Shown here piece by piece: positions 6,072-21,903 of a DNA stretch of 40,664 bases. The DNA is from Desulfobacterales bacterium (GTDB taxonomy: Bacteria > Desulfobacterota > Desulfobacteria > Desulfobacterales > JAFDMD01). A program made the position numbers and the translations under genes. The number at the start of each line of letters is the position of its first letter. The first letter of the stretch is position 1. The notes under the pieces are model-generated. The model saw only the letters and a program-made list of their open reading frames with translations. It did not search any database and had not been told where the DNA came from. The stretch spans positions 1-40,664 of the forward strand of contig JAOZTP010000002.1 of assembly GCA_029939135.1 (NCBI GenBank), read 5' to 3'.

Positions 6072-8525
6072 ATGGACGGAATAAAAAGCAGACCAGCCGT
6101 TATTGTTTTTGTTGGAATTATATTCGGCATTCTTGTAGGAGAAAAACTTTGCGGTTATAAAAATTTCGTCTTAATCTGCCTATCCTTTATTGTAATCCTT
6201 GCCTGTTTTAAAAACCGCCTTATAAAATTTTTGCACAATTCTAAAACTGAGCAAAACAAAAAATTATTCAACCCTCTTATATTATTCAGTCTATCCTTAA
6301 TATCTGGCTACCTTCTTATTCAGCCTTTTGTCTCCCCTATTCTACCGAAAAATCATGTTTATCATTACGCCGATTTAAAACAGAAGCAGACTATTATAGG
6401 GGTAGTATCTTCGGAACCGTTATGCAAAAAAGAGAAATGCAAATTTGAGGTTTCTGTAAATTCTATTAAAAAAAATAATAAAAAGATTCCAATCTCCGGC
6501 AAAATAATCGTTAGTTGGATAACCGAAAAAGGTAAAAAAATATATCAAGGAGATTTAATAGAATTTAACGCAAAAATCAGGTCTATAAGAAATTTTCATA
6601 ATCCCGGCGGATTTGATTACGAAAGATACATGGCTTTTAAAAAGATTTATGCAAGCTCCTTTGTATATAAAGAGAAGCTTAAAATTATTAAAAAAGCCGA
6701 AGAATCAAAATATTTAATAAGCGGATTAAGAAAAAACTTTTGCAACTTAATAGAAAAGCTGCCGTATAAAGAGGAAAAACAGGTATTAAAAGCCCTTTTA
6801 ACCGGAAAAAAGGATGAGATACCCAAAGATATAAGAAAGGCTTTTAACAATTCCGGCGCAAGTCATATATTAGCGATATCCGGTCTGCATATAGGAATAG
6901 CCGTTTTTATATCCTTTTTTATTTTTACAAAGATATTTTCATTATTTAAAAGTTTTACGGAAAAAGGAACCGTTAAAAAAATCGCCGCTTTTTTTACCGT
7001 AATAATAGCGGTTATATACGGCTTTTTTGCGGGAATGTCCCCCTCCACGCAACGAGCCGTTATTATGACTACGGTATTTTTATACTCTTTTATATTTGAA
7101 GAGGAGCCTGATACTTTAAACAGCCTTGCTTTATCCGGCATAATTATTTTAATAATAGAGCCGGCGTCTCTTTTTTCCATCTCTTTTATACTCTCTTTTA
7201 CCGCAGTTTTTGCAATATCTTACGGACTTAAAAAAGTAGGCGTAAAAGATAAAAATAGAATCCTTATATTTTTTCTCATATCGGTTTTTGCAACAATAGG
7301 AACCCTTCCTATTATACTATACAATTTTAATACACTTTGCGTAATAGGACCTTTTACAAATTTTATAGTAATTCCCGTTATAGGTTTCATATCGGTTCCT
7401 ATAGGGCTATCTGCGGTATTTATATATCCTTTAAGCGTAAAATTATCATTTTTTCTTTTAACAATATCGGCGGTTGTTTTATCCGGCGCAATAGAGTTTA
7501 TAAAAACAGTTTCTTTAATACCTTATGTATCGGTTAAAACAATCACTCCTAACATAATTGAAATATTATCTTTTTATGCGCTTGCAATTTCTTTGTTTAA
7601 CATAAAAAAATCAAATTTTGCCAAAAACACGGCTTTATTTGCGGCGCTTATTTTATGCGCGGATAGCGCATATTGGATAAAGGAAAGATTTTTAAGCCAA
7701 GAGTTAAGAATTACCGTTATAGACGTAGGACAAGGAAACTCCGCTCTTATAGAATTTCCCAGAGGGGAATGTATGTTAATAGACGGCGGCGGCTTTTCGG
7801 ACAAATCCGACTTTGACGCGGGCGAATCTATAGTAGCTCCGTTTTTACGGAAAAAAAAAATAAGAACCGTTAAAACAATAGCGCTAACCCATCCAGATTC
7901 GGATCATATAAACGGATTGAGTTATATAGCGGAAAACTTTTTTGTAAAAAATTTATGGAGTAATAACGAAGCGAAAAATACAAAAGGTTATAAATCTTTG
8001 ATAAACGCCGTCCGAAATAATAATATTAAAAATATAGATTTTCAAAAACTTTATGGCAGTCATGCCATAAACGGCGTTAAATTGGATATACTTTATCCGG
8101 TTAGAAATTTTGCCGAACTTAAAAAAAAGCAGTTATGGCGAGATACAAACAATAATTCATTGGTTTTAAAGGTAAAATACAAAGATTTTTCCTTTCTTTT
8201 TACCGGAGATATTAGAAAAAAAGCGGAAAAAGAGCTTGTAAAAACAGCCGGATCAAAACTTAAAACCCAAGTAATGCTTGCGCCTCATCATGGCAGCAAA
8301 ACATCTTCGTCTAATATTTTATTAAATGCGGCTTCGCCCGCGCTTGTCGTAATATCTTCAGGTTTTAATAACAGATACGGTTTCCCTCATACTCAGGTTA
8401 TTAATAATTATAAAAAAATAGGATGTAAAATTTTAAGAACCGATATTAACGGAGCCGTAGAGATAAAAAGCTTTGGCAAAGCCTTTAGATATAATGCGTC
8501 AAACAACTCAAACCGTCTCTTTTAA
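6072..8525 (+). CDS. comEC: DNA internalization-related competence protein ComEC/Rec2 (polytopic membrane domain plus C-terminal metallo-beta-lactamase domain)
   Basis: 817 aa. It has an N-terminal OB/DUF4131-like part, a competence-domain motif (SGASHILAISGLHIG), many TM helices, and MBL motifs (VIDVGQGNSALIE, LTHPDSDHINGL, LAPHHGS). The start lies 6 nt after the murA stop. Confidence 0.9.
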   Translation: MDGIKSRPAVIVFVGIIFGILVGEKLCGYKNFVLICLSFIVILACFKNRLIKFLHNSKTEQNKKLFNPLILFSLSLISGYLLIQPFVSPILPKNHVYHYADLKQKQTIIGVVSSEPLCKKEKCKFEVSVNSIKKNNKKIPISGKIIVSWITEKGKKIYQGDLIEFNAKIRSIRNFHNPGGFDYERYMAFKKIYASSFVYKEKLKIIKKAEESKYLISGLRKNFCNLIEKLPYKEEKQVLKALLTGKKDEIPKDIRKAFNNSGASHILAISGLHIGIAVFISFFIFTKIFSLFKSFTEKGTVKKIAAFFTVIIAVIYGFFAGMSPSTQRAVIMTTVFLYSFIFEEEPDTLNSLALSGIIILIIEPASLFSISFILSFTAVFAISYGLKKVGVKDKNRILIFFLISVFATIGTLPIILYNFNTLCVIGPFTNFIVIPVIGFISVPIGLSAVFIYPLSVKLSFFLLTISAVVLSGAIEFIKTVSLIPYVSVKTITPNIIEILSFYALAISLFNIKKSNFAKNTALFAALILCADSAYWIKERFLSQELRITVIDVGQGNSALIEFPRGECMLIDGGGFSDKSDFDAGESIVAPFLRKKKIRTVKTIALTHPDSDHINGLSYIAENFFVKNLWSNNEAKNTKGYKSLINAVRNNNIKNIDFQKLYGSHAINGVKLDILYPVRNFAELKKKQLWRDTNNNSLVLKVKYKDFSFLFTGDIRKKAEKELVKTAGSKLKTQVMLAPHHGSKTSSSNILLNAASPALVVISSGFNNRYGFPHTQVINNYKKIGCKILRTDINGAVEIKSFGKAFRYNASNNSNRLF

Positions 8526-8701
8526 AAAGCCGCTTTTCTTTGTAATGCCGTCAAATCATTTTCGGATATTCTTATGTTGATTTTTCTGTTTTTTTTCATA
8601 GTATTTTTGGCTATGGTTTTAAAATCGGTTTTTGAAACGCTGGGTTTAAGCTTTCCGTTTTCATATGCCTGTAAAATTTCGTTTTCGTAATCGTTTAACA
8701 T
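8522..8701 (-). pseudogene. BrnA/CopG-like antitoxin, C-terminally truncated (59 codons, below the ORF-track cutoff)
   Basis: My translation is MLNDYENEILQAYENGKLKPSVSKTDFKTIAKNTMKKNRKINIRISENDLTALQRKAAF*. The KINIRISExDLxAL segment is the start of the BrnA ribbon-helix-helix, and the rest of the RHH is missing. The stop overlaps the convergent comEC stop inside TTTAAA. Confidence 0.45.
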
Positions 8702-8877
8702 AGTTGAAAATCTCCAAAATATTTCTTTGTAGCTTTTCTACTAGGGATAATAGTTTTTAAAAAATATCCGTCCTCCTCTTCTACATAAGGAACCAAATAA
8801 GCATAACCTTTTACGTTGACAATCATTATTTTTTGATTTGGGTATTTTTCTTTATTAGGATGGTCAGTTTCAATTAT
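8695..8877 (-). pseudogene. BrnT-like (DUF497) toxin remnant lacking its N-terminal half
   Basis: The open frame NIIETDHPNKEKYPNQKIMIVNVKGYAYLVPYVEEEDGYFLKTIIPSRKATKKYFGDFQLC* has a C-terminal ..IIPSRKATKKY resembling the BrnT RIISARKAT..E..Y motif. An upstream in-frame TAA leaves only a 43-codon ATG ORF. An ATGTTAA overlap couples it to the antitoxin. Confidence 0.4.
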
Positions 8878-8887
8878 ATTTTAACTA

Positions 8888-9220
8888 TTACTTTTTTGTA
8901 AGATGCCATCCATCATTACATGGGCATCTGTAAACTCTAAGCCGCGCTCCTTGTTCCTTTTTTAATATTGCCGCTCTTTTTTCCGCATCCTTTTTTGTTT
9001 TATAGAGGTTTTTTCCGCAGATTCCGCATATTATACTGGGAGTTTGCCTGTTTTTAGGAGATAGGTGCCATAATCCGCAGGTATGGCATCTATACGGGAT
9101 AAAATTTGCGCCGTAATCAATGTTAGCGTAATCCGCTCCCTGCTGCGCTTCATATTCGGAATTGTATTCCGTAAGCGGTTCGCCTGTTCTGCCAGAGCAT
9201 GTGGCGCTTTTGAAACTCAT
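8888..9220 (-). CDS. Small protein with two tandem Cys-ribbon ..Y(R)C..C..WHL modules
   Basis: 110 aa with RBS GGAGA 9 nt upstream. Two internal repeats are present: CSGRTGEPLTEYNSEYEAQQGADY...YRCHTCGLWHLSPK and CGICGKNLYKTKKDAEKRAAIL...YRCPCNDGWHLTKK. Confidence 0.55.
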   Translation of the reverse strand: MSFKSATCSGRTGEPLTEYNSEYEAQQGADYANIDYGANFIPYRCHTCGLWHLSPKNRQTPSIICGICGKNLYKTKKDAEKRAAILKKEQGARLRVYRCPCNDGWHLTKK

Positions 9221-9328
9221 TCTTTTTTTTCTCCGATTTATTCAATTTTTGATATTACAAGCAAACAGCCCCGCTTTTTTACTCTAAAGGCTCATTATAT
9301 TTTACGTTCCGTTGCAAAAGGCTTGCTA

Positions 9329-10393
9329 TCAATCCCGATTCCAATTTAAACTACCATCACACATAATACACCCATAAATCCATGAGTTTTCCAAGTCATG
9401 TCCAGCTATCAGTTCATTGCAGTATCCGCAATGTTCAGGTTCGTCAAGCAATTCTAAACAATTAAGACATAAATAGGAATTATCAAATGGTATAGCAGAA
9501 GGAGCGGCTGAATATTCACAGTTGCCACAATAAGCTTCTAAAGGTTCTTCTTTATAATATCTACCGGGGGACAATTCTTGAAGAAGAAAATCAACATCTG
9601 AAACAAACCCACACTTTTGACACTCGCCGCATCCTAAATCTTCAACTTTAATATTTGTTTTACATTCAGGACAAGCGATAACTAAAAAATTACTGCGCAT
9701 ATTACATATAAGGCATGTGCAAGAAAATAATGGATTATAAGTATCATCCACCTTCGCGGCATCAAAACTGCAAAAATAGCAGGTTTCATATTGAATGCCA
9801 TTCTTTTTATCCTTGCAAATAGCAGATTTCATTTCTTCGTATTTTGCGCGTAAATATTTTTTATGGCGCTGCATTAAATGGTTAAGTTTTTCAATTTCCT
9901 CTGAGTAATCTTTAAAAATCGCTTTCCATTGATTGATAAGTAGCAAATGAAGATAAAACCACGCCGCATACTGTTCCGGTATAACTTCTTTGAGAGTCAG
10001 ATTGTCTGGTTTAACTATATATTTTTCATGGAAAAAATGAATAAGTTTGTTTCTATGATTTCTAACACTTTCAAAATATTGTTCCGCTTTATTTTCAATC
10101 TTTTCCCCAGAAATATTGTTTAATCTCTTGATGGTTTCCTTCATACTGGCTGAATGGAAATCGCCTGCTTGAAATTTTGAAAGATTTGCATTCTCAGGTT
10201 TTGCAACTATTAAAGACCAATGTTCAACCAGGAGACGAGCTTTAAAAAATAGTTCTATGGCAGAACAAAAATGAATGACTGAATACTTTGGCGATTTATC
10301 TAACTCATCAACAGATTTTTTTAAAAAGTCTATAGCGTTACGAGTTAGGCTATCAAAAAAAATTTGTAGATTTATCGACTTTTTTTTATTCAT
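9329..10393 (-). CDS. HEPN-like (Rx4H) N-terminal domain fused to a C-terminal array of at least 4 zinc ribbons
   Basis: The track starts at TTG 10399; ATG 10393 with GGGAA upstream is the likelier start. The N-terminal helical domain carries VRNHRNKLIHFFH (R116-x4-H121 in track numbering). The C-terminal 170 aa contain 8 or more CxxC pairs (CYFC, CLIC, CPEC, CGEC..C, CGNC, CLNC, CGYC, CIMC). Confidence 0.6.
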   Translation of the reverse strand: MNKKKSINLQIFFDSLTRNAIDFLKKSVDELDKSPKYSVIHFCSAIELFFKARLLVEHWSLIVAKPENANLSKFQAGDFHSASMKETIKRLNNISGEKIENKAEQYFESVRNHRNKLIHFFHEKYIVKPDNLTLKEVIPEQYAAWFYLHLLLINQWKAIFKDYSEEIEKLNHLMQRHKKYLRAKYEEMKSAICKDKKNGIQYETCYFCSFDAAKVDDTYNPLFSCTCLICNMRSNFLVIACPECKTNIKVEDLGCGECQKCGFVSDVDFLLQELSPGRYYKEEPLEAYCGNCEYSAAPSAIPFDNSYLCLNCLELLDEPEHCGYCNELIAGHDLENSWIYGCIMCDGSLNWNRD

Positions 10394-10508
10394 TCGCAAT
10401 TTCCCGTTAACAAGTTATTGTGCATGTCTGTATATCTTGAATAATATTAATAATTTTATTGTCAAACAGATAGCCGTTTATGTTGGGTTTTGAGAAGCGA
10501 CGCCCAAA

Positions 10509-11348
10509 CTACTTTTTCTTTTTACTTTTTCGGATAATCTTCCTTTTGGCTTCGGTTATAGGAGGCGGAATATCAGCGCCGATTATTTTTTCTATGGCGT
10601 CAAAGCGTTTCGGGCATGCCTTAATGCAGGTTCCGCATTTTATACATTTTCCCTGGTCTATTATATGAATTATATTTTTTGCTCCGTCTATTGCGTCTAC
10701 AGGGCATTGTTTAACGCAGATTCCGCATGCTTTGCATTTATTCGGGGTAATATAATATGAGGGGGCATCTGCAAATAATCGTTCTATTTCCTCCGCGGTA
10801 AAAAAATCTTCATATTGAGAGGGGTCTTTAAGAATGGTTTCAAGTTTTTCCTTTTTCGCTATTTTAATATAAGGGATAAGTTTTGAAATTTCTTTAAGTT
10901 TATCTTCAATTATATTCGGGTCTTTTTTTTCGGCTTTGCCGATCGGTCCTATTTCTTTTATTTTGTTTGTAAAATTATTAACAATTTCTGCAAACAGATT
11001 TCCTTCGCCGGAAGACATAAAGTCTATTTTTAATCTTTCCGGGTTTAACCCTATATATTCCATTATTTTTTTCAATAAAAGGGTTATATTTAGAGCATGA
11101 TAATTGCCATGCGTGGTATAATTGCATTCGTTAAGACGGCATCCTCCTATAAAGACTCCGTCTATTTTGTTTAAGAAGGCTTTTATTATAAATTCCGGAT
11201 CGATTCTTCCGGAACACATTACGCGGATAAGTCTTATTTCCGTATTATATTGTAATCTGGAAACTCCAGCGAGGTCGGCGGCGCCGTAGGCTCACCAATG
11301 GCAAACAAAACCTAATATTCTCGGTTTGAATTTATGTTTGGAGCTCAT
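10509..11348 (-). CDS. bamF: MvhD-like domain fused to a 2x[4Fe-4S] ferredoxin, selenocysteine-containing (BamF-type subunit of class II benzoyl-CoA reductase)
   Basis: The track ORF (10509-11219) starts mid-domain. The frame continues upstream through TGA (11292-11294) to ATG 11348, giving [51 protein letters not shown]. In the canonical MvhD motif (CNWCSYxGADLAG) the U position is Cys. The C-terminus has CKACGICVKQCP and CIKCGTCIKACP. Confidence 0.8.
11257..11269 (-). promoter_or_regulatory. Candidate bacterial SECIS apical hairpin for the bamF UGA
   Basis: On the mRNA, CUGGA-GUU-UCCAG (5-bp stem, G-first loop) starts 22 nt after the UGA. This geometry is compatible with bacterial SECIS models. 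Found by eye only. Confidence 0.35.
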
Positions 11349-11395
11349 TATCTTTATATCTCCTTTAGTTAAATTTCATTGTATAGCTTCATAAT

Positions 11396-11445
11396 TTGCC
11401 CGTTTGCGGCGGTTAAAATTTTTTTCGCCTTGCAAACGAACAAAT
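11396..11445 (-). repeat. Family B palindromic element, short (centre-deleted) copy, between bamE and bamF
   Basis: TTTGCCCGTTTGCGGCGGTTAAAATTTTTTTCGCCTTGCAAACGAACAAA contains both conserved arms (GCAAAC..GGCAAA and TTTGCAAGGCGAA) but lacks the central GGAATACATGTAGTATTTCGAGG core. Confidence 0.5.
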
Positions 11446-11687
11446 CACTTTGCTATCCAACAAAATTTTATCATTATTTTTTATAATTAAGGATTTGCTA
11501 TATCTCCAAGATATTCAAAGTTTTTTGCGTAAACGCAAACTGTTTGAAAGTTGCGCAAAGCGCAGTTGAAAATCCCAAGAGGCAAGCAAAAGCGAAGCAA
11601 ACAAACTTGAACGTCTCTGTTTTTTGCAATTAAATAATATTTGCTTATAATTTAAAAAAATCTCTTTTATTATTTCCCCGTTTTTGA

Positions 11688-14600
11688 TTATGCCGCCGCT
11701 TCTATTTGGCTTATGATTTCTTTATCCGTAAAATGTTTTAAACTTATTGCGCCGGTAGGACACTTTGCGTTGCAAAGTCCGTCTCCTTTGCAAAGAATAG
11801 GGTTAACAAAAGCCTTTCCGCCTCGTTTTGTTTTGCGTAATTCTATGGCGTTGTATGAGCATATGGATATGCAGGCTTCGCACCCTATACATTTTTTTTC
11901 ATCTACTTCGCAAACGGAACCGGAAACCGTAACCATATCGCGAGAAAGCAGGGTTAAAACTCTGCCTGCGGCTCCGTAAGCCTGACTGATTGTTTCGGAT
12001 ATATGTTTCGGGTAATGAGCTGTTCCGCAAAGATAAACTCCGTCTGTTCCGAATTCTACGGGTCTTAATTTTACGTGAGCCTCTTTGAAAAAACTATCTG
12101 GTCCTAAAGGAACTTTAAATAATTGAGATATTTTTTTATTATCTTCCGGCGGAATAACCGCCGCCGCCAAACCGATTATATCCGCGTTTATGGCAATTTT
12201 TCTGTCTAATATATAATCATGTGCGGCTACTCTTAATCCTTTGTCTATGGCTTTTACCTCCGGAGCGGCTTCCGGTTTGTAGCGGATAAATTTTATATCC
12301 TTATCCGCGGCTTGCCTGTAATAGTCTTCCTTAAAACCGTAAGTTCTTATATCTCTAAATAAAATGTATATGTCGGCGCTTGGGTTTATCTCTTTTAGTT
12401 TAAGTCCGTTTTTAATAGATTCGGAGCAGCATATTCTACTACAGTAGTTTCTATCCTCGTTTCTACAGCCTACGCATTGAATTATTACGATATTTTTTGC
12501 GTTGATTACGGTTTTATCCCGTTTATCTATTAAATCTTCCAATTGAAGATTTGTTACTACCCTTTCATCTTTCCCGTAAAGATATTCTTTCGGTTTATAT
12601 TCCTGCGCGCCTATAGCAATTACCGTCGCCCCATGTTCTATTTTTTCGGTTTGGTTTTTATATTCTATTTTGGTTTCAAAATTTCCCACATAACCGTAAG
12701 CTTCGGTTATGTCAGCCTCTATTCTTACGCGGATTAAAGGATGTTTATAAATTTCGCTTATAAGATTATCCATATGATTTCTAATATCCAAATCTTCCAA
12801 TAAGTAACAGATATTTTTTGCAACGCCTCCAAGCTCTTTATTTTTTTCTATAAGATATACGGGATGATTTTGCTTGGCTATGGAAAGAGCGCATGTCATT
12901 CCGGCTACTCCGCCGCCTATTACTAATGCGGTTTTATTTACCGGAAGGTCTATTTCCTTTAAAGGCTCAAGATGCGCCGCCCGCGCCGCAGACATTTTAA
13001 TTATATCTTTTGCTTTTTGGGTCGCATCCTCCTTTTCTTTGGAATGCACCCAAGAGTTATGCTCTCTTATATTAGCCATTTCGCAAAAGTATTGATTGAT
13101 TCCGGCTTCTCTTAAGGTATCTCTAAATAACGGCTCAAGGGTTCTTGGCGAGCATGCCGCTATAACTACGCGGTTTAACCCTTTCACTTTTATTGCTTCG
13201 GTTATCTCTTTTGCGGAATTTGTAGCGCATGAAAAAAGCTGCTCGCAGGCATAAACAACGTTAGGAAGGGTTAAAGAGTATTCAACGGTAGAAGGAATAT
13301 CTACGATTCTTCCTATGTTTGCTCCGCAATGGCATACAAAAACGCCTATTTTCGGCTCCTTTTCGGCTTGATCGATTTCAGGCGGATAGATTCTTTCTTC
13401 GGTAAGTTTATCTCTTCTGTAATTAAGAAGTTCGCCGCATTGGGAGCCTGCGCCGCCCGCGCTAAAAACCGATTCCGGAATATCGGAGGGACCGCAAAAT
13501 GCGCCGCTTATAAATATTCCCTCTCTTGTCGTCTGCATTGGATTGGATGAGTCCGTTTTGCAAAATCCGTAAGAGTTAAGCTTTATTTGAAATTTTTCGG
13601 CTATTTTACGATGATCCGCCGGCGGATTTAATCCTACAGACAACACCGCCATATCAAATTCTTCCTCTTTTACTCCGTCTTTAGGATCGACGTATCTTAT
13701 TATTATATTTTTATTTTGAGGATTTTCTTTTACTACTGAAGCGTAGCTTCTGATAAATTTAACTCCGGGAAAATTCTCGGTTCTTTGGTAATATGTTTCA
13801 AAATCTTTACCGTAAGCGCGAATGTCGTTATGAAATATTACACATTCTGCGTTTTGATTATGTTCTTTTGTTAAAATTACCTGTTTTTGAGTGTAAGCGC
13901 AGCATACCGCAGAGCAATACGGATTATCTCCGGCGGTTACTCTTCTTGAGCCTACGCATTGAAGCCAGGCTATTTTACTCGGATGTTTTTTATCGGAGGC
14001 TCGCAGTATTTCCCCTTCATAGGGTCCTGTTGCGCATAAAATTCTTTCAAAATCAAGAGATGTAACCACATTTTGAAACTCTCCGTAGCCATACCCGCCT
14101 TTTATTGCGGGATCAAACGCTTCATATCCGGGAGATAAAATAACGGCGCCTATTTTTATTTCTGCTTTCTCCTCTTTTTGATTAAGGTCTATAGCGTTAT
14201 TTTTACAAACTCCTTCGCAGATAAGGCATTTTTTCTCTTTAAGATAAAGGCAGCTTTCATCTATGTATGCGATTAAAGGAATTGCTTGAGAAAAATATAT
14301 ATGAACCGCTTTATTTTCCGATATATCCTGATTGAATTTATCCGGGTATTGAACGGGACAGTATTCTACGCAGGTAGCGCAACCAGTGCATTTTTCCTCT
14401 ATTATATATCTCGGTTTTTTTATTAAGGTTGCTTTAAAATTCCCCGCTTCTCCTTCTATGTTTTCAACTTCCGCAAATGTTATAACCTCTATGTTAGGAT
14501 GCCGGCCGACCTCGACCAGTTTAGGAGCGAGTATTCACATGGAGCAGTCGTTGGTAGGATAGGTTTTATCCAATTGAGCCATTTTACCGCCTACAGCGGG

Positions 14601-14762
14601 ACCTTTTTCAATAAGATAAACCTTAAAGCCAGCGCCCGCAAGATCCAACGAGGCTTGTATGCCGCTAATTCCTCCGCCTACTACCATTACGTCCGCATAA
14701 TTCTTTTTTTCGGTTTTACAAAGTTTTTGAATTTTTTCTTTTATTAGTCGATTCTTATTCAT
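11688..14762 (-). CDS. bamE: Long HdrA-like FAD/FeS protein, selenocysteine-containing (BamE-type subunit)
   Basis: Track ORFs 14535-14762 and 11688-14069 are in the same frame. I translated the 465 nt between them and found no stop. The only interruption is TGA 14535-14537, inside ..[20 protein letters not shown], where canonical HdrA has CSMC. Other features are a GGGISG FAD motif, a second VIGGGVAGM domain, and several CxxCxxCxxxCP clusters. Total length is 1024 codons. Confidence 0.85.
14504..14517 (-). promoter_or_regulatory. Candidate SECIS apical hairpin for the bamE UGA
   Basis: On the mRNA, GGUCG-AGGU-CGGCC (5-bp stem including one G-U pair, 4-nt loop with G at position 2) begins 17 nt after the UGA. 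Found by eye only. Confidence 0.3.
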
Positions 14763-14865
14763 TATTTTTTTCCGTTTAAATATTTCTATTCATGGAGTTT
14801 TTATCTATTTTTTTTCTCTCTTCCATCTCCGGTTTTGAGTTTTTAATTGAGTTATTTTAAGGTTT

Positions 14866-16017
14866 TTAAAGCGCCTCTGCAATTACCTCGCTAATCTCTT
14901 TAATCTCTATCTGTTCGCTTCCCTTAACGGTTAATTTGCTGTCTTCAAAATTGGCTACGCAGTATGGGCATGCCGTAACCAATACTTCGGCGCCGGCATC
15001 TATTGCCTGTTGTAATCTAATGTCCGAAAATCTTTCTCCTTTGGATGTCTCCATCCAAATTCTGCCGCCTCCGCCTCCGCAGCAAAGGCTATTTTCCTTT
15101 GTTTCTTCCATTTCAAGCAGTTTAAGTTCCGGTATCTGTTTTAATATTTCTCTCGGCTCATTATATATGCCGTTATGACGTCCGAGATAACAGGGATCAT
15201 GGTATGCGACCTTTTTATTATATTCTTTGTTAATTTTCAGTTTCTTATTTTTGAAAAGTTCCAATAAATATTCGGTAATATGTATAACTTCAAAGGTTGT
15301 CATAAATTCCGGGTATTCGTTTTTAAGGGTATGATAACAATGTGGAGAGGATACGAGAATTTTTTTTACGCCGTTGTCTATAAATGTTTTTATATTCTCT
15401 TTTGCCAATTTTTCAAATAGCTGTTCGCCGCCGGTTTTACGGATGCTTTCCCCGCAGCAGTTCTCCTTTTCGCCCAGTATTCCGAAATTTGCTTCAGCTT
15501 TTTTAAGAATTTTTGCCGTAGCCGCCGCCGCTTTTTTTAATCTCGGATCGTAGCTGTAATAACAACCCGTAAAATATAATAGTTCTGTTTCCTCATCAAA
15601 TTTTTTTATCGAAAGCTCCTTTGCCCAGTCTCCCCTTTTTTTTCTATCTTCGTTAAACGGATTGCCTTCTCCGGTAAGGCTTCCGCTTATTCCGCGAATT
15701 GGAGCGGCAGAAGCGGGTAATATATCATATTCTGCGGCAATCTTTCGCAGCGCTAGTCCGGATTCTATTTGTTGAACATCTCGGGGGCAATGAGTCGGGC
15801 ATTTTCCGCAAGTTGTGCATAGCCATAAATCTTCGCTTTCTATGTCGGTAAAGCCGAATGCCGCCTCCCGAACTATTTTGCGCATGCTAAAAGGGCGGAC
15901 TTTATTCCACGGGCATACTATATCGCATAATCCACATTGAAAGCATTTTTTAAAGGCTTCGCCTCCGCTTGCTTTTATCATATCTGATATTTCTTTATAA
16001 TCGGATAAATTTTCCAC
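14866..16017 (-). CDS. bamD: HdrD-like FeS protein with two CCG domains (BamD-type subunit)
   Basis: GTG start preceded by GAGGA. It has CFQCGLCDIVCP and CTTCGKCPTHCP ferredoxin motifs plus CCG motifs (NCCGES, LCCGGGGG). Confidence 0.8.
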   Translation of the reverse strand: MENLSDYKEISDMIKASGGEAFKKCFQCGLCDIVCPWNKVRPFSMRKIVREAAFGFTDIESEDLWLCTTCGKCPTHCPRDVQQIESGLALRKIAAEYDILPASAAPIRGISGSLTGEGNPFNEDRKKRGDWAKELSIKKFDEETELLYFTGCYYSYDPRLKKAAAATAKILKKAEANFGILGEKENCCGESIRKTGGEQLFEKLAKENIKTFIDNGVKKILVSSPHCYHTLKNEYPEFMTTFEVIHITEYLLELFKNKKLKINKEYNKKVAYHDPCYLGRHNGIYNEPREILKQIPELKLLEMEETKENSLCCGGGGGRIWMETSKGERFSDIRLQQAIDAGAEVLVTACPYCVANFEDSKLTVKGSEQIEIKEISEVIAEAL

Positions 16018-16113
16018 TTTTTTCCTCTATTTAAATTTCGCTTGAAATATTATATATATTCCTACGGTTAAAATAGAATATTAAACGTTTCATCTGTTTG
16101 CAATTTCAATTAA

Positions 16114-16150
16114 GGGATTTCTCCTCGCTACGCTTGTCGAAATGACAAAC
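16114..16150. repeat. Family A half-site (GGGATTTCTCCTCGC..GTCGAAATGACAA)
   Basis: GGGATTTCTCCTCGCTACGCTTGTCGAAATGACAAAC, in the bamC-bamD gap next to the family B copy. Confidence 0.65.
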
Positions 16151-16209
16151 AAAAACATAGCCATACGGGTTTTCCCTCATTTATATTCGTATTCGGTCAA
16201 AATTTATCT

Positions 16210-16329
16210 GCATAACGAAGCAGTTTGTTTGCAAGGCGAACATTTTTTTTAACCGGAGGAATACATGTAGTATTTCGAGGATTAAAAAAAATGTTCAACG
16301 CCGCAAACGGGCAAACTGCTTCGTTATGC
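16210..16329 (+). repeat. Family B long imperfect palindrome (full copy) between bamC and bamD
   Basis: The outer arms GCATAACGAAGCAG (16210-16223) and CTGCTTCGTTATGC (16316-16329) form a perfect 14-bp inverted repeat. The core is TTTGCAAGGCGAA..AACCGGAGGAATACATGTAGTATTTCGAGGATT..TTCAACGCCGCAAACGGGCAAAC. The bamC stop codon (16324-16326) lies inside the right arm. Confidence 0.75.
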
Positions 16330-16866
16330 CGCGGACTTTACGGAGATTTGAGCTATAGAATCTATTACTTGCTCTAATCCGTATTTATCTGCCAAAGCTT
16401 TTAATCCTGTTTCCAATTCGTCGGACATAAGCGTATTTTCAATTTTTTCCTCCGCCTCTTCATAAATCAAAGCGTCCGTTATGCACCATTTAACGCATAA
16501 AGGCTCATCTTCTCCTTCGCACATGTCGCATTTTAAAGGAAGTCCGGAATCAGGCTCTTTAAATTCCTCTCTTGAAGGGCATGATGCTCGGCAAAAGGCG
16601 CATTCCTCATACTCTTTTCCATCTATTATATATTTGTCTCTGCCGGCGCATTCCGCCGGAGTATATTCCCCCGCATAAACAGGAATGTATATGTCCGCCA
16701 ATGGCTCACGGATTACCCGAATACGCGCCCTTGCCGGATTATTGGAACTATATTTCGGCAAAGCGTGAAAAGCGGAGCATATCATTTCGCAAGCTTTGCA
16801 GCCGTTGCATTTATCAGCGTCTATTTTTATTCTTTTTATTATTTTTTTCTCTTTTTCAACCTTCAA
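16324..16866 (-). CDS. bamC: 4Fe-4S cluster protein (BamC-type electron-transfer subunit)
   Basis: TTG start 3 nt after the bamB stop, with GGGAGG 8 nt upstream. 180 aa, Cys-rich: CNGCKACEMICS, CAFCRASCP, CDMCEG..PLCVKWC. Confidence 0.8.
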   Translation of the reverse strand: MKVEKEKKIIKRIKIDADKCNGCKACEMICSAFHALPKYSSNNPARARIRVIREPLADIYIPVYAGEYTPAECAGRDKYIIDGKEYEECAFCRASCPSREEFKEPDSGLPLKCDMCEGEDEPLCVKWCITDALIYEEAEEKIENTLMSDELETGLKALADKYGLEQVIDSIAQISVKSAA

Positions 16867-16869
16867 GGT

Positions 16870-18867
16870 TTATACCTCCCTTTTATTCGGTTCGGTTTTT
16901 TGACCTTTTTTATTCGGCAAAATCTCTCTTTTTATGAAATCTTCGCTAACATAATTTAAACCGAGTTGGTTTAAGCTTTCTTCGGTAGGGATTCCGTCTT
17001 GATTCCATCCTTTAAGTTTGTAATATTCGTCTAAAAGCTTTTCTTCCAATTCCGGAAATCTTTTTTTCCAATGGTTTTTCGGCGGCTTGTCGTCTTTTCT
17101 TCTCATTCCTCTTCTTATATTGATAGCTCTTATAAGGGTTCTGTATCTTTTTGCGGCGGCGGTTAATTTTTCTTCGTCCATATCAATTCCGACTCCCGCA
17201 GATATAAATTTTGGATAATTATGTATATGATAAGGAGGTTTTAACGGAAATGAGGATAAGCCAGCGCACATTCCCAAAGCGTCGTCTATGTAATGCATTT
17301 TTTCCTGCCAATCCACTATGTCGCAGGTCATTTCAACGGTCGGATAAAAGGGTATCGAATTTTCTCCGCGAAGTTCCCAATCTAAAAAGTATTGTTTGAA
17401 TTTTTCGTCCGGAACATGGAACCAGTCCTTTACAAACGCTTCTCTTTGTTCTCTTTTCGGAAATGGCGCTTGCGGAAACTGCCCTTCTATTTGGGTGATA
17501 TTAATTTTTTCGCCGGTAGCATACATAAGAAAGTATATAGGATTTAACATGGATAATTTAAGCGGCAGTTGCTCATGTTTTTTGATGTTGTTATGAGCGT
17601 ATTCTTCGGCTCCATCGCCAATTTTTTTTGACGCCCAATATGTTCCGTCCGCCAGTATATCCCCTATTCCTTCTCTTTTTACTATTTTATCGAGAAGCCA
17701 ATAGAATCTTCCTTCGTTATCTTTCGGCATGCCCGGAAAATCTTTATCCTTTAATATGCCGTTTTCGTAAAGTTCCAATGCAAACGCCATAACCTGCGGA
17801 GCGGAAAAACTGTCAACGCCATGTTCCGTAGCTATTTGAGCGATTTTTAATCCAAAATCAAGATCGGACATTGCCGCCATTGTATAGGTAAGTTTGGAAA
17901 AGCATTTCATCATGTATGTAGGCATTCCCGGAAGGGTGAGAGTCGCGCCGCATTTCATCGGGCAGTTGTAACAGCTTATAAGCCTTGTTTGCGCGTCATT
18001 CATTGTTTTTGTCCATGCTTTTGCTGTATCTTCGGTCCAAAAGCCTTTTCGACGAACGCGCGAATTTCCCCACATAAAGTTTTCGGTATGCCATTTTTCA
18101 TCATGTATTTTCATCTCTTGAGGCGAGCCGAGCCCCGCCAAAATCGGCATTACTCCGGGTATAGGATTTTCTTCTCGAAATTTTATATATTCCATAACTT
18201 CGTTGCAAAGTTCCATGAATTCTTCCGGTTTTGCAACATTTACATCTTTTGTTCCGCGAACGACTACCGCTTTTACGCCTTTATCTCCCATAACCGCGCC
18301 GAGTCCGCCTCTGCTTGCGCTTGATCTGCCCTGCTCTATGGAGGCGAAAAACACTCTGTTTTCTCCAGCCGTCCCTATAGAGGCTACTTGAGCTTTAGGC
18401 TGGTTTAACTCCTTTTTGATTATCTCCGCAGTCTCTATAGCCCCTTTCCCTTTTAAATGAGAGGCGTCTTTTATTTCAACTTTGTCATTATTTATCCATA
18501 AATAAACAAGGTCTGGAGATTTTCCGCGGAGTATAACTTTGTCGTAGCCTGCATATTTTAATTCCGGCGCCAAAAACCCGCCCATCATAGAAAACGCCAT
18601 TAATTCGGTTTGCGGCGATATTGTAGAAACTATGGTTCTGTTGCAGCCTATGGCTGGGGTTCCGCATAAAAGTCCTGCGGAAAATATTAATAGATTATCG
18701 GGAGAAAACGGCTTAACTTCCGGCGGGACTCTGTCCCATAATATTTTGGCGTTAGAGCCGAGCCCTCCGAGATAAAGTTCGGTATCGGCAGGATCCGTAG
18801 CTACCCTTTCGATATTTCCTAATGTTAGATCAATTTCGAGATTAAATCCGGTTTCTGCATATCTCAT
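16870..18867 (-). CDS. bamB: Aldehyde:ferredoxin-oxidoreductase-family tungsten enzyme (BamB-type catalytic subunit of class II benzoyl-CoA reductase)
   Basis: 665 aa. The N-terminus MRYAETGFNLEIDLTLGNIERVATDP..LYLGGLGSNAKILWDRVPPEV..CNRTIVSTISPQT is very close to my recollection of Geobacter BamB. The AOR fold is supported by the EQGRSSASRGGLGAVMGDKG motif. The gene heads the bamBCDEF order. Confidence 0.88.
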   Translation of the reverse strand: MRYAETGFNLEIDLTLGNIERVATDPADTELYLGGLGSNAKILWDRVPPEVKPFSPDNLLIFSAGLLCGTPAIGCNRTIVSTISPQTELMAFSMMGGFLAPELKYAGYDKVILRGKSPDLVYLWINNDKVEIKDASHLKGKGAIETAEIIKKELNQPKAQVASIGTAGENRVFFASIEQGRSSASRGGLGAVMGDKGVKAVVVRGTKDVNVAKPEEFMELCNEVMEYIKFREENPIPGVMPILAGLGSPQEMKIHDEKWHTENFMWGNSRVRRKGFWTEDTAKAWTKTMNDAQTRLISCYNCPMKCGATLTLPGMPTYMMKCFSKLTYTMAAMSDLDFGLKIAQIATEHGVDSFSAPQVMAFALELYENGILKDKDFPGMPKDNEGRFYWLLDKIVKREGIGDILADGTYWASKKIGDGAEEYAHNNIKKHEQLPLKLSMLNPIYFLMYATGEKINITQIEGQFPQAPFPKREQREAFVKDWFHVPDEKFKQYFLDWELRGENSIPFYPTVEMTCDIVDWQEKMHYIDDALGMCAGLSSFPLKPPYHIHNYPKFISAGVGIDMDEEKLTAAAKRYRTLIRAINIRRGMRRKDDKPPKNHWKKRFPELEEKLLDEYYKLKGWNQDGIPTEESLNQLGLNYVSEDFIKREILPNKKGQKTEPNKREV

Positions 18868-19387: not shown

Positions 19388-21903
19388 ATGAAGATAAAAG
19401 GAATTTATTATTTTATCTTATTTATACTTATCGGAGCTGGCATTGCGGGAGCGAATGATTACTCAAACCCGATAACCCCAAGCCCAGTAACTACCCCGAT
19501 AACAATGACCAACGGAAGCGATAACTACACAAACACCATAATCGGCACAATTAATATTACTAGCGCACCCGGTATCGGTATAGATGCAAGCGCAAGCGCT
19601 GATACCGGCGACGATACTATTATAAACGCAGGAAATATTACAGTTTCAAGCGTAGGCGCAGGCATAGATTTTCACGAAGGCAACAACGCGCTTTATAATC
19701 AAGCTGTCGCCCGTATTAGTGTTACCTCTACCGCTTGCTGAACCGGGCATAATTTTTGGATCGGGCAACGATAACTTCACAAACTCAGGGTATGCTTCAG
19801 TTGCAAGCACAAGTGGTATCGGTATCGAAATGGGCGCTGGAGATGATAATATTACCAATTCCGGAACTTTGGATTCCAATAATACTATTGACGTCGGCGC
19901 TGGCAATGATAGTTTTATAAATGATGGAACTGTTACGGTTAACAGCGGCGCCCAACAGGGCATAAAATTAGGAGAAGGATACAACACATTTGAGAATAAA
20001 ACTTCCGGCATAATTAATATTAACTCTACTAATGATGGCATAACTTTTGGCGCGGACGACGATAGTTTTACAAATGATGGAAGTATTACAATTACGACAA
20101 CCGGAACAAACGCTATAGCAATGGGAGAAGGATACGATAACTTCACTACTTCCGGCGCGCTGAATTTTGATAAGCCTATTGACGGGGGAGCCGATACTGA
20201 CATTTTCACATTAAACGGAACTGCAATTCGATCCTTTGATCAGGACATTGTAAATTTTGAAACCATTAATAAAGAGGAATCCGGCTCTTGGGATTTAACC
20301 GGCGCAATAACCGGCGCAACGGCTATTAATATTAATAATGGCGAATTGCATCTTAACGGAACAATTACCGCGCCGATTAGCCTTGCAAGCGCGGGAGCTT
20401 TGGGAATTACAAGCCCCAATTCCATAGGGACTCTTAATTATGCCGGCAACTTTACTCAAAGTGCAGGGGGATTATTAATAGACGTAGATAACGAGAGCGC
20501 AGATTTATTCGCAATTACCGGAAATGCAAATATAACCAGCGGAACACTGATTGTTAATCCGCTGGCAAGCTATCTTGATTATGACTGGACGCAAAAAATA
20601 TTAGACGCCACAGGAATTCGCACAGGCGAGTTTGCTTCTATTCTTTCCACAAGCGCGCTATTTGAATTTGAAGGGGATTACACGGTAGCAAATGAAGTAT
20701 GGCTTAACAAAATTAACGTGCCATTGCTTACCGCTATGGAAAACGCCTCTACTCCGATAACCGCAAATAATATCTCTCAAGGAAACTATATTCAACAAGC
20801 TATAGAGGCGGGAGAAAGAAATTCTGTTAATTAACGCTTTAATCTCTTTATCTACCGCCGAAGACGTAATCAAAGCGATAGATACTCTTTCGCCGGAGAC
20901 TGTAGCCTCCGCCATTGGCGCAAGCCAACAGAATGTTTCAGCTCAAAATTTAAACGTATCTTCAAGATTGGGAATTCATCATAGATGGATAGGATACGGA
21001 ATGCCAAAATTGATCGCAGGTCTTGCATCCGACGCTTTCCCAATACTTTACGCAAATTCAAATCAGGCGGATACTCCGCTTAATTCCTTGTGGGTTAAAG
21101 GCATATACCTTAATTCTAAAAACGATGCGGACGACGGCAAGTTTGGATTTGAAACCGATACTCAAGGATTTAGCGTAGGTAAAGATTATTTAAAGAGCGT
21201 TTTACTTTACGGAGTTAGCGGAGGGTTTTCTCAATCTACAATAGATTATGACGATATTTCTTCCGAAGGGGAAATCGACACTTTAAATTTAAGCTTATAC
21301 GGCAGCTACGCTCCGGAAAGCTATTATATTGACGCAATATTATCATATTCAAACCATAATTATACAATGGAAAGAAAAATTTCTATTCTTAACGAAACCG
21401 CAACCGGCGATTACAGAGCGGACGAATATAGCGCTTCTCTTAAAGCGAGATATCCTATTAAATTAAACGCTTTTACATTTACTCCTATAGCCTCAGTTCA
21501 ATATTCGCATTATAAGCAAGATTCCTTTACCGAAACAGGCTCCTCCGCAGCCCTTGTTATAGAGGCGACAGATTCCAACTCCTTTATGACCGGGCTTGGG
21601 GCGTCAATAGGAAAAAGGTTTGATTACGGGCAATGGAAACATTTGCCTCATTTAAAGTTTATCTGGAAGCATGAATTATGCGATACCGCAGATAAGATTA
21701 AAGCAAGCTTTGCGGATTTAGGCGAATCTTACGGAACATTTGAAATAGAAGGCTACGATGCCGGCGCCGAAACCTATAATATAGGACTCGGACTGACCTC
21801 GTATAAAGGAAAAAAATTCTCCTTATTTTTGAATTACGATATAGACATAAAAGAGAACTATATTGCGAATTCGGTTACCGGAGGCTTAAAGTTTTACTTC
21901 TAA
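19388..21903 (+). pseudogene. Autotransporter (signal peptide, G-x-D-x-F/I-x-N-x-G repeat passenger, C-terminal beta-barrel) interrupted by two frameshifts
   Basis: The three track ORFs (19388-19741, 19719-20834, 20968-21903) lie in three different frames and read as one protein. The signal peptide is MKIKGIYYFILFILIGAGIAGA. Passenger repeats run across the first junction (GDDTIINAGNITV, GNDNFTNSG, GDDNITNSG, GNDSFINDG). The third frame is open back to ~20821 (ILLINALISLSTAEDVIKAIDTLSPE..), which is the typical linker before the barrel that ends ..GGLKFYF. Confidence 0.75.

What the first reader, a model, noticed from the sequence alone, without database searches (positions are those of the whole stretch)
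8888..10393. HEPN-like Rx4H protein with a multi-zinc-ribbon tail, followed by a tandem zinc-ribbon mini-protein
The 354-356-aa protein has an N-terminal helical domain ending in VRNHRNKLIHFFH. R-x4-H is the catalytic signature of HEPN RNases. The C-terminal 170 aa carry at least eight CxxC pairs, so four or more zinc ribbons.

About 108 nt downstream on the same strand lies a 110-aa protein made of two copies of a Cys..Cys-x(20-35)-Y-R-C-x2-x-WHL module.

Both genes are wedged between the bam operon and a decayed BrnT/BrnA pair. This is the usual setting for toxin or defence genes. I do not recognise a HEPN domain fused to such a dense zinc-ribbon array. The small partner could be an antitoxin, a nucleic-acid-binding adaptor, or unrelated.
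Basis: partly seen in the sequence, partly recalled or inferred. Interest (0 to 1): 0.62.

Follow-up and report, generated by a model that had tools for sequence, protein, structure and literature searches.

The report
HEC-08 HEPN defence gene, unrelated neighbour
The large gene is a clear member of HEC-08, a single-gene anti-phage defence family (HEPN RNase head plus zinc-finger tail) already tested in E. coli, and the small zinc protein downstream is an unrelated neighbour, so the finding is mostly ordinary.

Summary
On the minus strand, 9329-10399 encodes a 354/356-aa protein with an invariant R116-N-x3-H121 motif and eight CxxC pairs. A 110-aa protein made of two Cys/His modules follows 108 nt downstream (8888-9220).

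The large protein is not a new architecture. It matches the PADLOC HEC-08 model end to end (E 1.2e-83). It aligns over 350 aa (29% identity, E 2e-45) with the E. coli ECOR52 HEC-08 protein. Payne et al. (bioRxiv 2024) showed that protein defends against phages as a single gene and fails when H128 is mutated. H128 aligns with H121 here.

The partner idea fails. Among 95 HEC-08 loci and 83 small-protein loci, the two genes are adjacent only in one close syntenic relative of this genome. The small gene has no conserved neighbour. Its dN/dS is 0.23, like the housekeeping flanks, against 0.69 for HEC-08.

The small protein belongs to a widespread uncharacterised family. Its single module recurs in many small phage proteins of unknown function.

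One new hint: the last zinc module of HEC-08 gives dN/dS about 4 between the two lineages. That would fit a phage-sensing domain.

Verdict: a new member of a known kind, of low to moderate interest.

The parts
9329..10393 (-). HEC-08-family defence gene. It is 354 aa from the ATG at 10393; an alternative TTG at 10399 gives 356 aa. Residue numbers in this report use the 356-aa form.
   Evidence: ORF list. PADLOC HEC-08 hit, E 1.2e-83, residues 6-355 against 7-357 of 358. BLASTP to the tested E. coli ECOR52 HEC-08: 29% identity over 350 aa, E 2e-45. 247 homologues.
9803..10369 (-). N-terminal all-helical HEPN domain of DUF3644 type, residues about 11-199.
   Evidence: PADLOC DUF3644 model, E 2e-53, residues 14-163. 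14 of 38 homologues hit Pfam PF12358. AlphaFold model with helices 11-199, pLDDT about 90. Foldseek finds HEPN structures 2hsb (prob 0.95, TM-target 0.61), 7bxo_D and 9bj7, but with weak E-values.
10037..10054 (-). Predicted catalytic motif R116-N117-K-L-I-H121 (Rx4H).
   Evidence: R116, N117 and H121 are invariant in 38 homologues. H121 aligns with H128 of E. coli HEC-08, whose mutation abolished defence.
9359..9790 (-). C-terminal zinc-binding region, residues 204-347, with eight CxxC pairs, enough for four predicted Zn sites. The first half resembles a double zinc ribbon. The last four pairs (291-347) weakly resemble a C4C4 RING-type finger.
   Evidence: Invariant cysteines. Beta-rich model, pLDDT about 90. 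DZR and Zn_Ribbon_TF hits in some homologues. Weak profile match of 289-327 to RING finger chains, E 8e-4. dN/dS 4.2 for residues 281-356 against the syntenic relative.
9221..9328 (-). 108-nt spacer between the two genes. No terminator-like or promoter-like site was found in it. The GGAG ribosome-binding site of the small gene lies at its 3' end.
   Evidence: Sequence. Promoter and terminator scan. 91% identical to the relative, no more conserved than the flanking genes at 86-90%.
8888..9220 (-). 110-aa stand-alone protein with two tandem Cys/His zinc modules (residues 1-56 and 57-110). It belongs to an uncharacterised family and is not a conserved partner of HEC-08.
   Evidence: establish the gene and its repeat. 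No Pfam, PADLOC, NCBIfam or PDB match. 20-21 of 21 members hit PHROGs 15216, 10414 and 3424, all of unknown function. One module superposes on small phage proteins. No co-occurrence with HEC-08. No conserved neighbour.
8522..8826 (-). Context only: decayed toxin-antitoxin pair. A 43-aa BrnT-like C-terminal remnant lies at 8695-8826 and a 59-aa BrnA/CopG-type antitoxin N-terminal remnant at 8522-8701.
   Evidence: ORFs. The syntenic relative keeps only the complementary C-terminal antitoxin piece. The joined antitoxin hits PF12441 (E 7e-6) and PF14384 (E 0.007). The BrnT piece has no Pfam hit.

Best explanation
The 354/356-aa gene is a stand-alone copy of the HEC-08 single-gene antiviral defence family.

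Its N-terminal DUF3644-type HEPN domain carries the Rx4H RNase motif (R116/H121). Its C-terminal half is a four-site zinc-finger array.

By analogy with the tested E. coli homologue and with other HEPN defence and toxin proteins, it most likely works as follows. The protein stays inactive until phage infection is sensed. The zinc-finger region probably does the sensing, and its last module is evolving fast. The HEPN domain, probably as a dimer, then cleaves RNA. That stops phage production, possibly at the cost of the infected cell.

What is shown here: family membership, conservation of the catalytic and zinc-binding residues, and the absence of a conserved partner.

What is taken from the literature: defence activity and dependence on the HEPN histidine.

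What is inferred: RNA cleavage, dimerisation, the sensor role of the zinc fingers, and an abortive-infection outcome.

The 110-aa gene downstream is an independent gene. It is a tandem duplication of a small zinc module that is common in phage proteins of unknown function. It happens to sit in the same small variable spot, together with the BrnT/BrnA remnants, at the end of the bam-like operon.
For: Family membership:
- The PADLOC HEC-08 model matches over the full length (E 1.2e-83), and the PADLOC DUF3644 model matches at E 2e-53.
- BLASTP to the experimentally tested E. coli ECOR52 HEC-08, with the sequence taken from supplementary table 2, gives 29% identity over 350 aa, E 2e-45. H121 aligns with H128.
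- Payne et al. report that HEC-08 is a single gene that reduced plaquing in E. coli, and that the H128 mutation negated defence.

Conserved residues and fold:
- R116, N117, H121 and 16 cysteines are conserved across 38 homologues.
- The AlphaFold model is confident (pLDDT 88), with a helical N-terminal half and a beta-rich C-terminal half.
- HEPN structures are among the top Foldseek hits.

Genomic setting of relatives:
- 29 of 95 relatives sit between an Hma-type helicase and a methylase. 14 have a HEC-09-like NYN gene just upstream. This reproduces the published context.
- Closer relatives sit beside HEPN_AbiV, restriction-modification, GIY-YIG and IS21 genes.
- 11 relatives lie on IMG/VR viral contigs.

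Independence of the small gene:
- Of 95 HEC-08-seeded loci, only L007 has the small gene. Of 83 small-gene-seeded loci, only L001-L003 have HEC-08. All four come from one lineage that is syntenic with the window at about 87% nucleotide identity.
- A 70%-identical HEC-08 homologue lacks the small gene.
- No neighbour of the small gene recurs in more than 5 of 81 loci.
- dN/dS is 0.23 for the small gene against 0.69 for HEC-08.
Against: - No activity data exist for this protein. Identity to the tested homologue is only 29%.
- Foldseek E-values for the HEPN fold are weak (0.6 and worse). The full-length query was searched, and no domain-only search was possible.
- This copy is not embedded in an Hma system, and its immediate neighbours are metabolic genes.
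- The overall dN/dS of 0.69 could mean relaxed constraint rather than an arms race.
- No terminator was found between the two genes, so co-transcription with the small gene cannot be excluded.
- No RNA-seq data cover this organism.
Confidence: 0.85

Rival explanations
1. The two genes form a lineage-specific two-gene module. The small zinc protein would act as an antitoxin, regulator or nucleic-acid-binding adaptor of the HEPN protein.
For: The genes share a strand and lie 108 nt apart, with no terminator-like site between them. The adjacency is kept in the one syntenic relative. The small gene's module is common in phage proteins, and the small gene is often found near restriction-modification, toxin-antitoxin or NERD genes.
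Against: The pair is adjacent in only one lineage out of 178 surveyed loci. HEC-08 homologues at 58-70% identity lack the small gene. The tested E. coli HEC-08 works alone. The small gene has no conserved neighbour. It evolves like the housekeeping flanks, with dN/dS 0.23 against 0.69. The adjacency in the relative is explained by whole-region synteny at 86-91% nucleotide identity.
Confidence: 0.08
2. The large protein is the toxin of a HEPN-type toxin-antitoxin system rather than a phage-sensing defence protein.
For: Structural neighbours include the HEPN toxin SO_3166 (7bxo_D; also reported). The locus lies next to toxin-antitoxin remnants.
Against: There is no MNT nucleotidyltransferase or other conserved antitoxin gene next to it, here or in 95 related loci. 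The E. coli homologue was cloned and expressed alone and gave phage-specific protection. The large zinc-finger extension is absent from HEPN-MNT toxins.
Confidence: 0.05
3. This copy is a decaying, non-functional relic sitting in a junk spot between operons.
For: The overall dN/dS against the relative is 0.69, far above the flanks at 0.13-0.23. The adjacent BrnT/BrnA pair is clearly decayed. The copy is not in an Hma system or a recognisable defence island.
Against: The ORF is intact and full length in both lineages. All 41 invariant family positions are retained, including R116, N117, H121 and the invariant cysteines. The excess of amino-acid change is concentrated in residues 281-356, where dN/dS is 4.2. 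Residues 201-280 give 0.24. That pattern fits selection for change better than uniform decay.
Confidence: 0.07

Closest known systems
HEC-08 (Hma-embedded candidate 08), E. coli ECOR52 WP_001313577.1; Payne et al., bioRxiv 10.1101/2024.01.29.577857; PADLOC model PDLC04162
   Same: Same length class (354 against 366 aa). Same architecture: DUF3644-type HEPN, a helical linker and multiple CxxC zinc fingers. Alignable end to end. Same catalytic His (H121 = H128). A single gene without a conserved partner.
   Different: Only 29% identical. The host is a vent Deltaproteobacteria-type MAG lineage rather than an enterobacterium. It is not embedded in an Hma system but sits after a bam-like operon. 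Its activity is untested.
EC042_2821 / DUF3644 HEPN family (Anantharaman et al. 2013, PMC3710099)
   Same: HEPN family with a conserved Rx4-6H motif. It is reported as fused to zinc-ribbon domains and as occurring in restriction-modification operons.
   Different: That family description also covers fusions to wHTH and restriction-endonuclease domains, which are absent here. Pfam PF12358 itself does not reach significance on this protein. It hits 14 of 38 homologues.
HEPN-MNT toxin-antitoxin (for example Shewanella SO_3166/SO_3165, PDB 5YEP/7BXO)
   Same: HEPN fold with an Rx4H RNase motif. It is a structural neighbour of the N-terminal domain.
   Different: There is no MNT antitoxin gene. The toxin there is a minimal HEPN of about 130 aa without zinc fingers. 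Regulation by AMPylation is not applicable here.
Ishtar anti-plasmid proteins (bioRxiv 10.64898/2026.07.06.735840)
   Same: Single-gene immune proteins with an N-terminal HEPN domain (DUF3644 or DUF4145) and a C-terminal domain of unknown function. They are found in variable spots between core genes.
   Different: Their C-terminal domain is described as 5-7 beta-strands plus 3 helices, and no zinc fingers are mentioned. They act on plasmid RP4.
Small uncharacterised phage proteins of PHROGs 15216, 10414, 3424, 9124 and 16009 (for example Mycobacterium phage Wildcat Q19Y54). This comparison concerns the 110-aa protein.
   Same: One beta-beta-alpha-beta-beta Cys/His module with the Y-x-C...W-H-L signature. 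HMM E-values reach 6e-12. Foldseek gives prob 1.0 and rmsd 0.6-2.4 A over 40-52 residues.
   Different: The phage proteins carry a single module. The window protein and its cellular family carry two in tandem, and some relatives carry 3-5. No function is known for any of them.

Membership tests
HEC-08 defence family | Full-length match to the family profile (PADLOC PDLC04162). | tested here: met
   E 1.2e-83, 279 bits, residues 6-355 against profile positions 7-357 of 358.
HEC-08 defence family | Homology to the experimentally tested protein across both domains. | tested here: met
   BLASTP against E. coli ECOR52 HEC-08: 29% identity, 47% positives over 350 aa, E 2e-45.
HEC-08 defence family | HEPN Rx4-6H motif, including the histidine needed for defence (H128). 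| tested here: met
   R116, N117 and H121 are invariant in 38 homologues. H121 aligns with H128.
HEC-08 defence family | Several C-terminal zinc-finger or zinc-ribbon-like domains. | tested here: met
   Eight conserved CxxC pairs. Beta-rich, confident model.
HEC-08 defence family | Acts as a single gene, with no conserved partner. | tested here: met
   No neighbour is conserved apart from the Hma genes and HEC-09, in a subset of loci. The small gene is present in 1 of 95 loci.
HEC-08 defence family | Embedded within an Hma (helicase-methylase-ATPase) system. This is the context in which it was discovered, not a requirement for membership. | tested here: not met
   The window copy lies between a bam-like operon and ComEC. 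29 of 95 relatives are Hma-flanked.
HEC-08 defence family | Protects against phage infection. | not testable with these tools
   Known only for the E. coli homologue.
HEPN superfamily | All-alpha helical bundle fold with the Rx4-6H motif on a core helix. | tested here: inconclusive
   The model is all-helical over 11-199, and the motif lies at the end of helix 103-121. HEPN structures 2hsb (prob 0.95, TM-target 0.61), 7bxo_D and 9bj7 are among the top hits, but E-values are 0.6 or worse. The Pfam HEPN_Apea and RiboL-PSP hits are below threshold. The PADLOC DUF3644 HEPN model hit is strong.
HEPN superfamily | Metal-independent RNase activity. | not testable with these tools
HEPN-MNT type II toxin-antitoxin | An adjacent MNT nucleotidyltransferase antitoxin gene. 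| tested here: not met
   There is no such gene within the window neighbourhood or as a recurrent neighbour in 95 loci.
RING-type (C4C4 cross-brace) zinc finger, for residues 291-347 | Eight ligands in cross-brace order with RING spacing, plus significant profile similarity. | tested here: inconclusive
   The spacing C-x2-C-x16-C-x2-C-x9-C-x2-C-x16-C-x2-C is compatible. There is only a weak profile match to RING finger chains (E 8e-4 to 0.04). Model coordinates could not be inspected.
BrnT/BrnA toxin-antitoxin (downstream remnants) | Match to the BrnT (DUF497) and BrnA/CopG antitoxin profiles. | tested here: inconclusive
   For the antitoxin, the window's N-terminal part joined to the relative's C-terminal part gives PF12441 at E 7e-6 (27.2 bits against a cut-off of 28) and PF14384 at E 0.007. 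The 43-aa toxin remnant has no hit.

The most novel reading that the evidence does not exclude
The 110-aa protein may represent an unrecognised, widespread family. It has 714 cluster representatives and no Pfam, PDB or PADLOC match. The family arose by tandem duplication of a zinc module otherwise carried by many small phage proteins. Such a family could play a role in phage-host conflict, for example as a nucleic-acid-binding regulator or as an inhibitor or decoy of defence nucleases. In this lineage it could have come to modulate the adjacent HEC-08. Separately, the last zinc module of HEC-08 (residues 281-356, dN/dS about 4) may be the phage-recognition surface of this defence family. No sensor has yet been described for it.
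Probability: 0.12. Interest if true: 0.55.

Novelty: new member of a known kind. Interest (0 to 1): 0.25.

Why it matters
The main value is in clearing the finding. The 'HEPN plus zinc-ribbon array' architecture is the already validated HEC-08 defence family, and the suggested two-gene system does not exist as a conserved unit.

Three smaller points go beyond what is known:
- HEC-08 occurs as a free-standing gene outside Hma systems, in an anaerobic vent bacterium. This widens its known range.
- The amino-acid change between two close lineages is concentrated in the last zinc module. That gives a testable candidate for the sensor of a defence protein whose trigger is unknown.
- The small neighbour flags a large uncharacterised zinc-module family shared between phages and cells.

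Tried and rejected
- Pfam and NCBIfam on the large protein gave only sub-threshold HEPN_Apea and RiboL-PSP hits. PADLOC resolved the identity.
- A PDB sequence search with the family profile gave only zinc-finger noise and a weak RING match.
- Full-length Foldseek against the PDB gave no significant E-values, although HEPN folds were among the top hits.
- For the small protein, Pfam, PADLOC, NCBIfam, PDB sequence search and PDB Foldseek found nothing meaningful. Weak DUF4379 'treble clef' hits in 13 of 21 members are below threshold.
- Longer relatives of the small protein were scanned for fused domains. Only weak CdiI_3-like and IF2_N hits were found.
- The small protein has no relatives on IMG/VR viral contigs by the pattern search.
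- Neighbour clustering for the small gene found no conserved partner.
- Rfam on 8000-12000 found nothing credible. The repeat search in 8400-11800 gave only short chance-level matches.
- No RNA-seq runs exist for this sequence, so co-transcription could not be tested.
- Laying metagenome contigs on the region showed strain variants, including one without the BrnT/BrnA remnants. It showed no well-supported variant lacking HEC-08. A 9305>11392 joint rests on only 27 letters and was disregarded.
- The idea that the 108-nt spacer is unusually conserved was rejected. It is 91% identical to the relative, against 86-90% for the flanking genes.
Full report
WHAT IS THERE

Both genes of the finding lie on the minus strand. 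The large ORF runs 10399..9329. The small ORF runs 9220..8888 (110 aa). A 108-nt spacer separates them, and the small gene has its own GGAG ribosome-binding site.

The motif VRNHRNKLIHFFH is present. R116-x4-H121 is encoded at 10054..10037. I aligned 38 homologues at 39-78% identity. R116, N117 and H121 are invariant. So are 15 cysteines, and C263 is nearly invariant. Together these cysteines make eight CxxC pairs: 207/210, 229/232, 243/246, 260/263, 291/294, 311/314, 324/327 and 344/347. That is enough for four zinc sites.

IDENTITY OF THE LARGE PROTEIN

Pfam gives only sub-threshold HEPN_Apea and RiboL-PSP-HEPN hits. The PADLOC library is decisive. The protein matches the HEC-08 model over its whole length (E 1.2e-83, residues 6-355 against 7-357 of 358). 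It also matches PADLOC's DUF3644 model (E 2e-53, residues 14-163).

HEC-08 is one of the 'Hma-embedded candidates' of Payne et al. (bioRxiv 10.1101/2024.01.29.577857). [quoted passage not shown] HEC-08 is not among the two-gene systems the paper names. It was among the seven of nine systems that reduced plaquing of coliphages in E. coli. Mutation of the Rx4-6H histidine (H128) abolished defence.

I took the tested protein's sequence (E. coli ECOR52, WP_001313577.1) from the paper's supplementary table 2 and compared it directly. The result is 29% identity and 47% positives over 350 aa, E 2e-45. The alignment spans both domains, and H121 aligns with H128.

Anantharaman et al. 2013 (PMC3710099) had already listed the DUF3644-overlapping EC042_2821 HEPN family as fused to zinc ribbons and found in restriction-modification operons. 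The architecture is therefore known.

STRUCTURE

An AlphaFold2 model built from the 38-sequence alignment is confident (mean pLDDT 88, pTM 0.78). Residues 11-199 are all-helical, and the Rx4H motif closes helix 103-121. Residues 204-347 are beta-rich.

Foldseek of the full-length model against the PDB gives no significant E-values. HEPN structures do appear among the top hits: 2hsb (AF_0298; prob 0.95, TM-target 0.61), 7bxo_D (the SO_3166-type HEPN toxin that the paper also cites) and AbiV 9bj7. I count the fold test as consistent but inconclusive on its own. The profile evidence carries the assignment.

Fourteen of the 38 homologues hit Pfam PF12358 (DUF3644), and a few hit double-zinc-ribbon models. 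The family profile also gives a weak match of residues 289-327 to RING finger chains (E 8e-4). The spacing of the last four CxxC pairs is compatible with a C4C4 cross-brace finger. This is a lead, not a result.

IS THE SMALL GENE A PARTNER?

The small protein is a real gene. It has 21 close homologues, 77 metagenome loci and 714 cluster representatives at E<=1e-3 in an exhaustive profile search.

Its two halves are homologous (BLASTP E 1e-6). The model shows a beta-beta-alpha-beta-beta unit twice (pLDDT 86). The likely ligands are C8/C45/C48/H52 and C65/C68/C99/H106.

Co-occurrence fails:
- I fetched 95 loci seeded by HEC-08: 80 from one genome per species, 11 from IMG/VR, and 4 from closer metagenome homologues. 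Only L007 contains the small gene.
- Of 83 loci seeded by the small gene, only L001-L003 contain HEC-08.
- L001 and L007 are the same contig (Deltaproteobacteria MAG WB1_Bin_3). That contig is syntenic with the window across the whole region, in the order HdrA-like, FlpD-like, HEC-08, small gene, ComEC, MurA. Nucleotide identity is a uniform 86-91%. The shared adjacency is therefore simple inheritance.
- HEC-08 homologues at 70%, 59% and 58% identity have other neighbours. These include HEPN_AbiV and an S49 peptidase in one case, and restriction-modification, RadC, GIY-YIG and IS21 genes in another.
- Homologues of the small gene sit next to unrelated genes: VapC/BipA, YdjM, NERD, a Tsp45I restriction-modification system, and glycogen genes.
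- No neighbour of the small gene recurs in more than 5 of 81 loci.

The two genes also evolve differently. Against the syntenic relative, dN/dS is 0.23 for the small gene and 0.13-0.23 for FlpD, HdrA, ComEC and MurA, but 0.69 for HEC-08. The small gene is best read as an unrelated neighbour.

WHAT THE SMALL PROTEIN IS

It has no credible match in Pfam, NCBIfam, PADLOC, PDB sequences or PDB folds. It does match phage protein families of unknown function. PHROGs 15216 and 10414 are hit by all 21 members, with E-values down to 6e-12.

One module superposes on many small uncharacterised phage proteins. Examples are Mycobacterium phage Wildcat Q19Y54, Gordonia phages, Caulobacter phage CcrBL9, Pseudomonas phage Persinger and crAss-like viruses. 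These give prob 1.0, rmsd 0.6-2.4 A over 40-52 residues, and 22-40% identity.

Cellular relatives are mostly 110-125 aa two-module proteins. A few have 3-5 modules separated by low-complexity linkers. No informative domain fusions were found.

My working reading is a stand-alone zinc-binding protein, probably nucleic-acid-binding, of mobile-element origin. Its function is unknown.

CONTEXT

Of the 95 HEC-08 loci, 29 have an Hma-type helicase upstream and a large methylase downstream, often followed by the ATPase. Fourteen have a HEC-09-like NYN gene immediately upstream. This reproduces the published setting.

The window copy is different. It follows an operon with the order AOR-family oxidoreductase, Fe-S protein, HdrD-like, HdrA-like and MvhD/FlpD-like. 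Behind the copy come the small gene, then toxin-antitoxin remnants, then the convergent ComEC and MurA genes.

The toxin-antitoxin remnants are informative. The window keeps a BrnT-like C-terminal piece and the N-terminal part of the antitoxin. The relative keeps only the C-terminal part of the antitoxin. The two antitoxin halves joined together hit CopG_antitoxin (E 7e-6) and BrnA (E 0.007). An intact pair therefore stood here in the common ancestor. This gap between operons is a small variable spot.

MECHANISM

Shown here:
- family membership;
- conservation of the catalytic and metal-binding residues;
- no conserved partner.

From the literature, for a 29%-identical homologue:
- anti-phage activity that depends on the HEPN histidine.

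Inferred:
- the HEPN domain is an RNase that works as a dimer with a composite Rx4H site, as is general for HEPN proteins (Anantharaman 2013);
- it is held inactive until infection;
- the zinc-finger half senses the phage or binds the RNA target;
- the outcome is shut-down of translation or RNA in the infected cell.

One observation supports a sensor role for the tail. Between the window and its relative, residues 281-356 give dN 0.198 and dS 0.047, so dN/dS is 4.2. Residues 201-280 give 0.24 and the HEPN half gives 0.69. This rests on one sequence pair, 76 codons, and a window chosen after looking at the data. It is a hint only.

NOVELTY AND VERDICT

The large gene is a new, divergent member of a known and experimentally supported defence family, found in an unusual host and outside its usual Hma setting. 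The proposed HEPN-plus-partner system is not supported. The small protein belongs to an uncharacterised but widespread family with phage relatives. That family is the only open question here.

Interest is low to moderate (0.25).

Noticed in passing
window 11688-14800 (-) and 10509-11330 (-): The HdrA-like (BamE-like) and FlpD/MvhD-like (BamF-like) genes each contain an in-frame TGA at the position of a conserved cysteine ('DCSM*ILAPK' and 'CHW*AYGAADLAG'). Both are probably selenoproteins, and the ORF finder splits or truncates them.
   Followed up: partly
window 14866-18867 (-): AOR-family oxidoreductase, a small Fe-S protein and an HdrD-like CCG protein precede the HdrA-like and MvhD-like genes. 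Together they give the bamBCDEF order of class II benzoyl-CoA reductase.
   Followed up: partly
window 8522-8826 (-) and L001:6305-6454: The window and its syntenic relative keep complementary fragments of one BrnT/BrnA-type toxin-antitoxin pair. The window has the toxin C-terminal piece and the antitoxin N-terminal part. The relative has the antitoxin C-terminal part. An intact pair therefore decayed independently in the two lineages. A strain variant in run X4 lacks the remnants altogether (joint 8495>8895).
   Followed up: partly
window 11275-11576: Metagenome contigs pile up here at 10-40 times the local depth in four vent and sediment runs, with many loose ends. The sequence upstream of, and at the start of, the FlpD-like gene is shared by many community members or copies. 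No Rfam family matches and no repeat was found inside the window.
   Followed up: partly
window 9359-9559 (-), residues 281-347 of the large protein: Amino-acid changes against the close relative are concentrated in the last zinc module (dN/dS 4.2, against 0.24 for the preceding zinc module). The same stretch has a weak profile match to RING finger chains.
   Followed up: partly
L036, L041, L017, L039 and other HEC-08 loci: About 30% of HEC-08 relatives are flanked by an Hma-type helicase, methylase and ATPase. 14 have a HEC-09-like NYN gene directly upstream. L088 has a HEPN_AbiV gene directly upstream of a 70%-identical homologue.
   Followed up: partly
P0142, P0150 (relatives of the small protein): Some family members carry 4-5 copies of the module, separated by Ser/Thr/Asn-rich low-complexity linkers. 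This looks eukaryote-like. Two relatives (P0178, P0214) have an N-terminal extension with a weak CdiI_3 (CDI immunity) hit.
   Followed up: no
window 20968-21903 (+): A 311-aa ORF is a clear autotransporter beta-domain protein (PF03797, E 7e-60). That is short for an autotransporter, so the passenger domain may be encoded by the preceding ORF (19719-20834), which has no Pfam hit.
   Followed up: no
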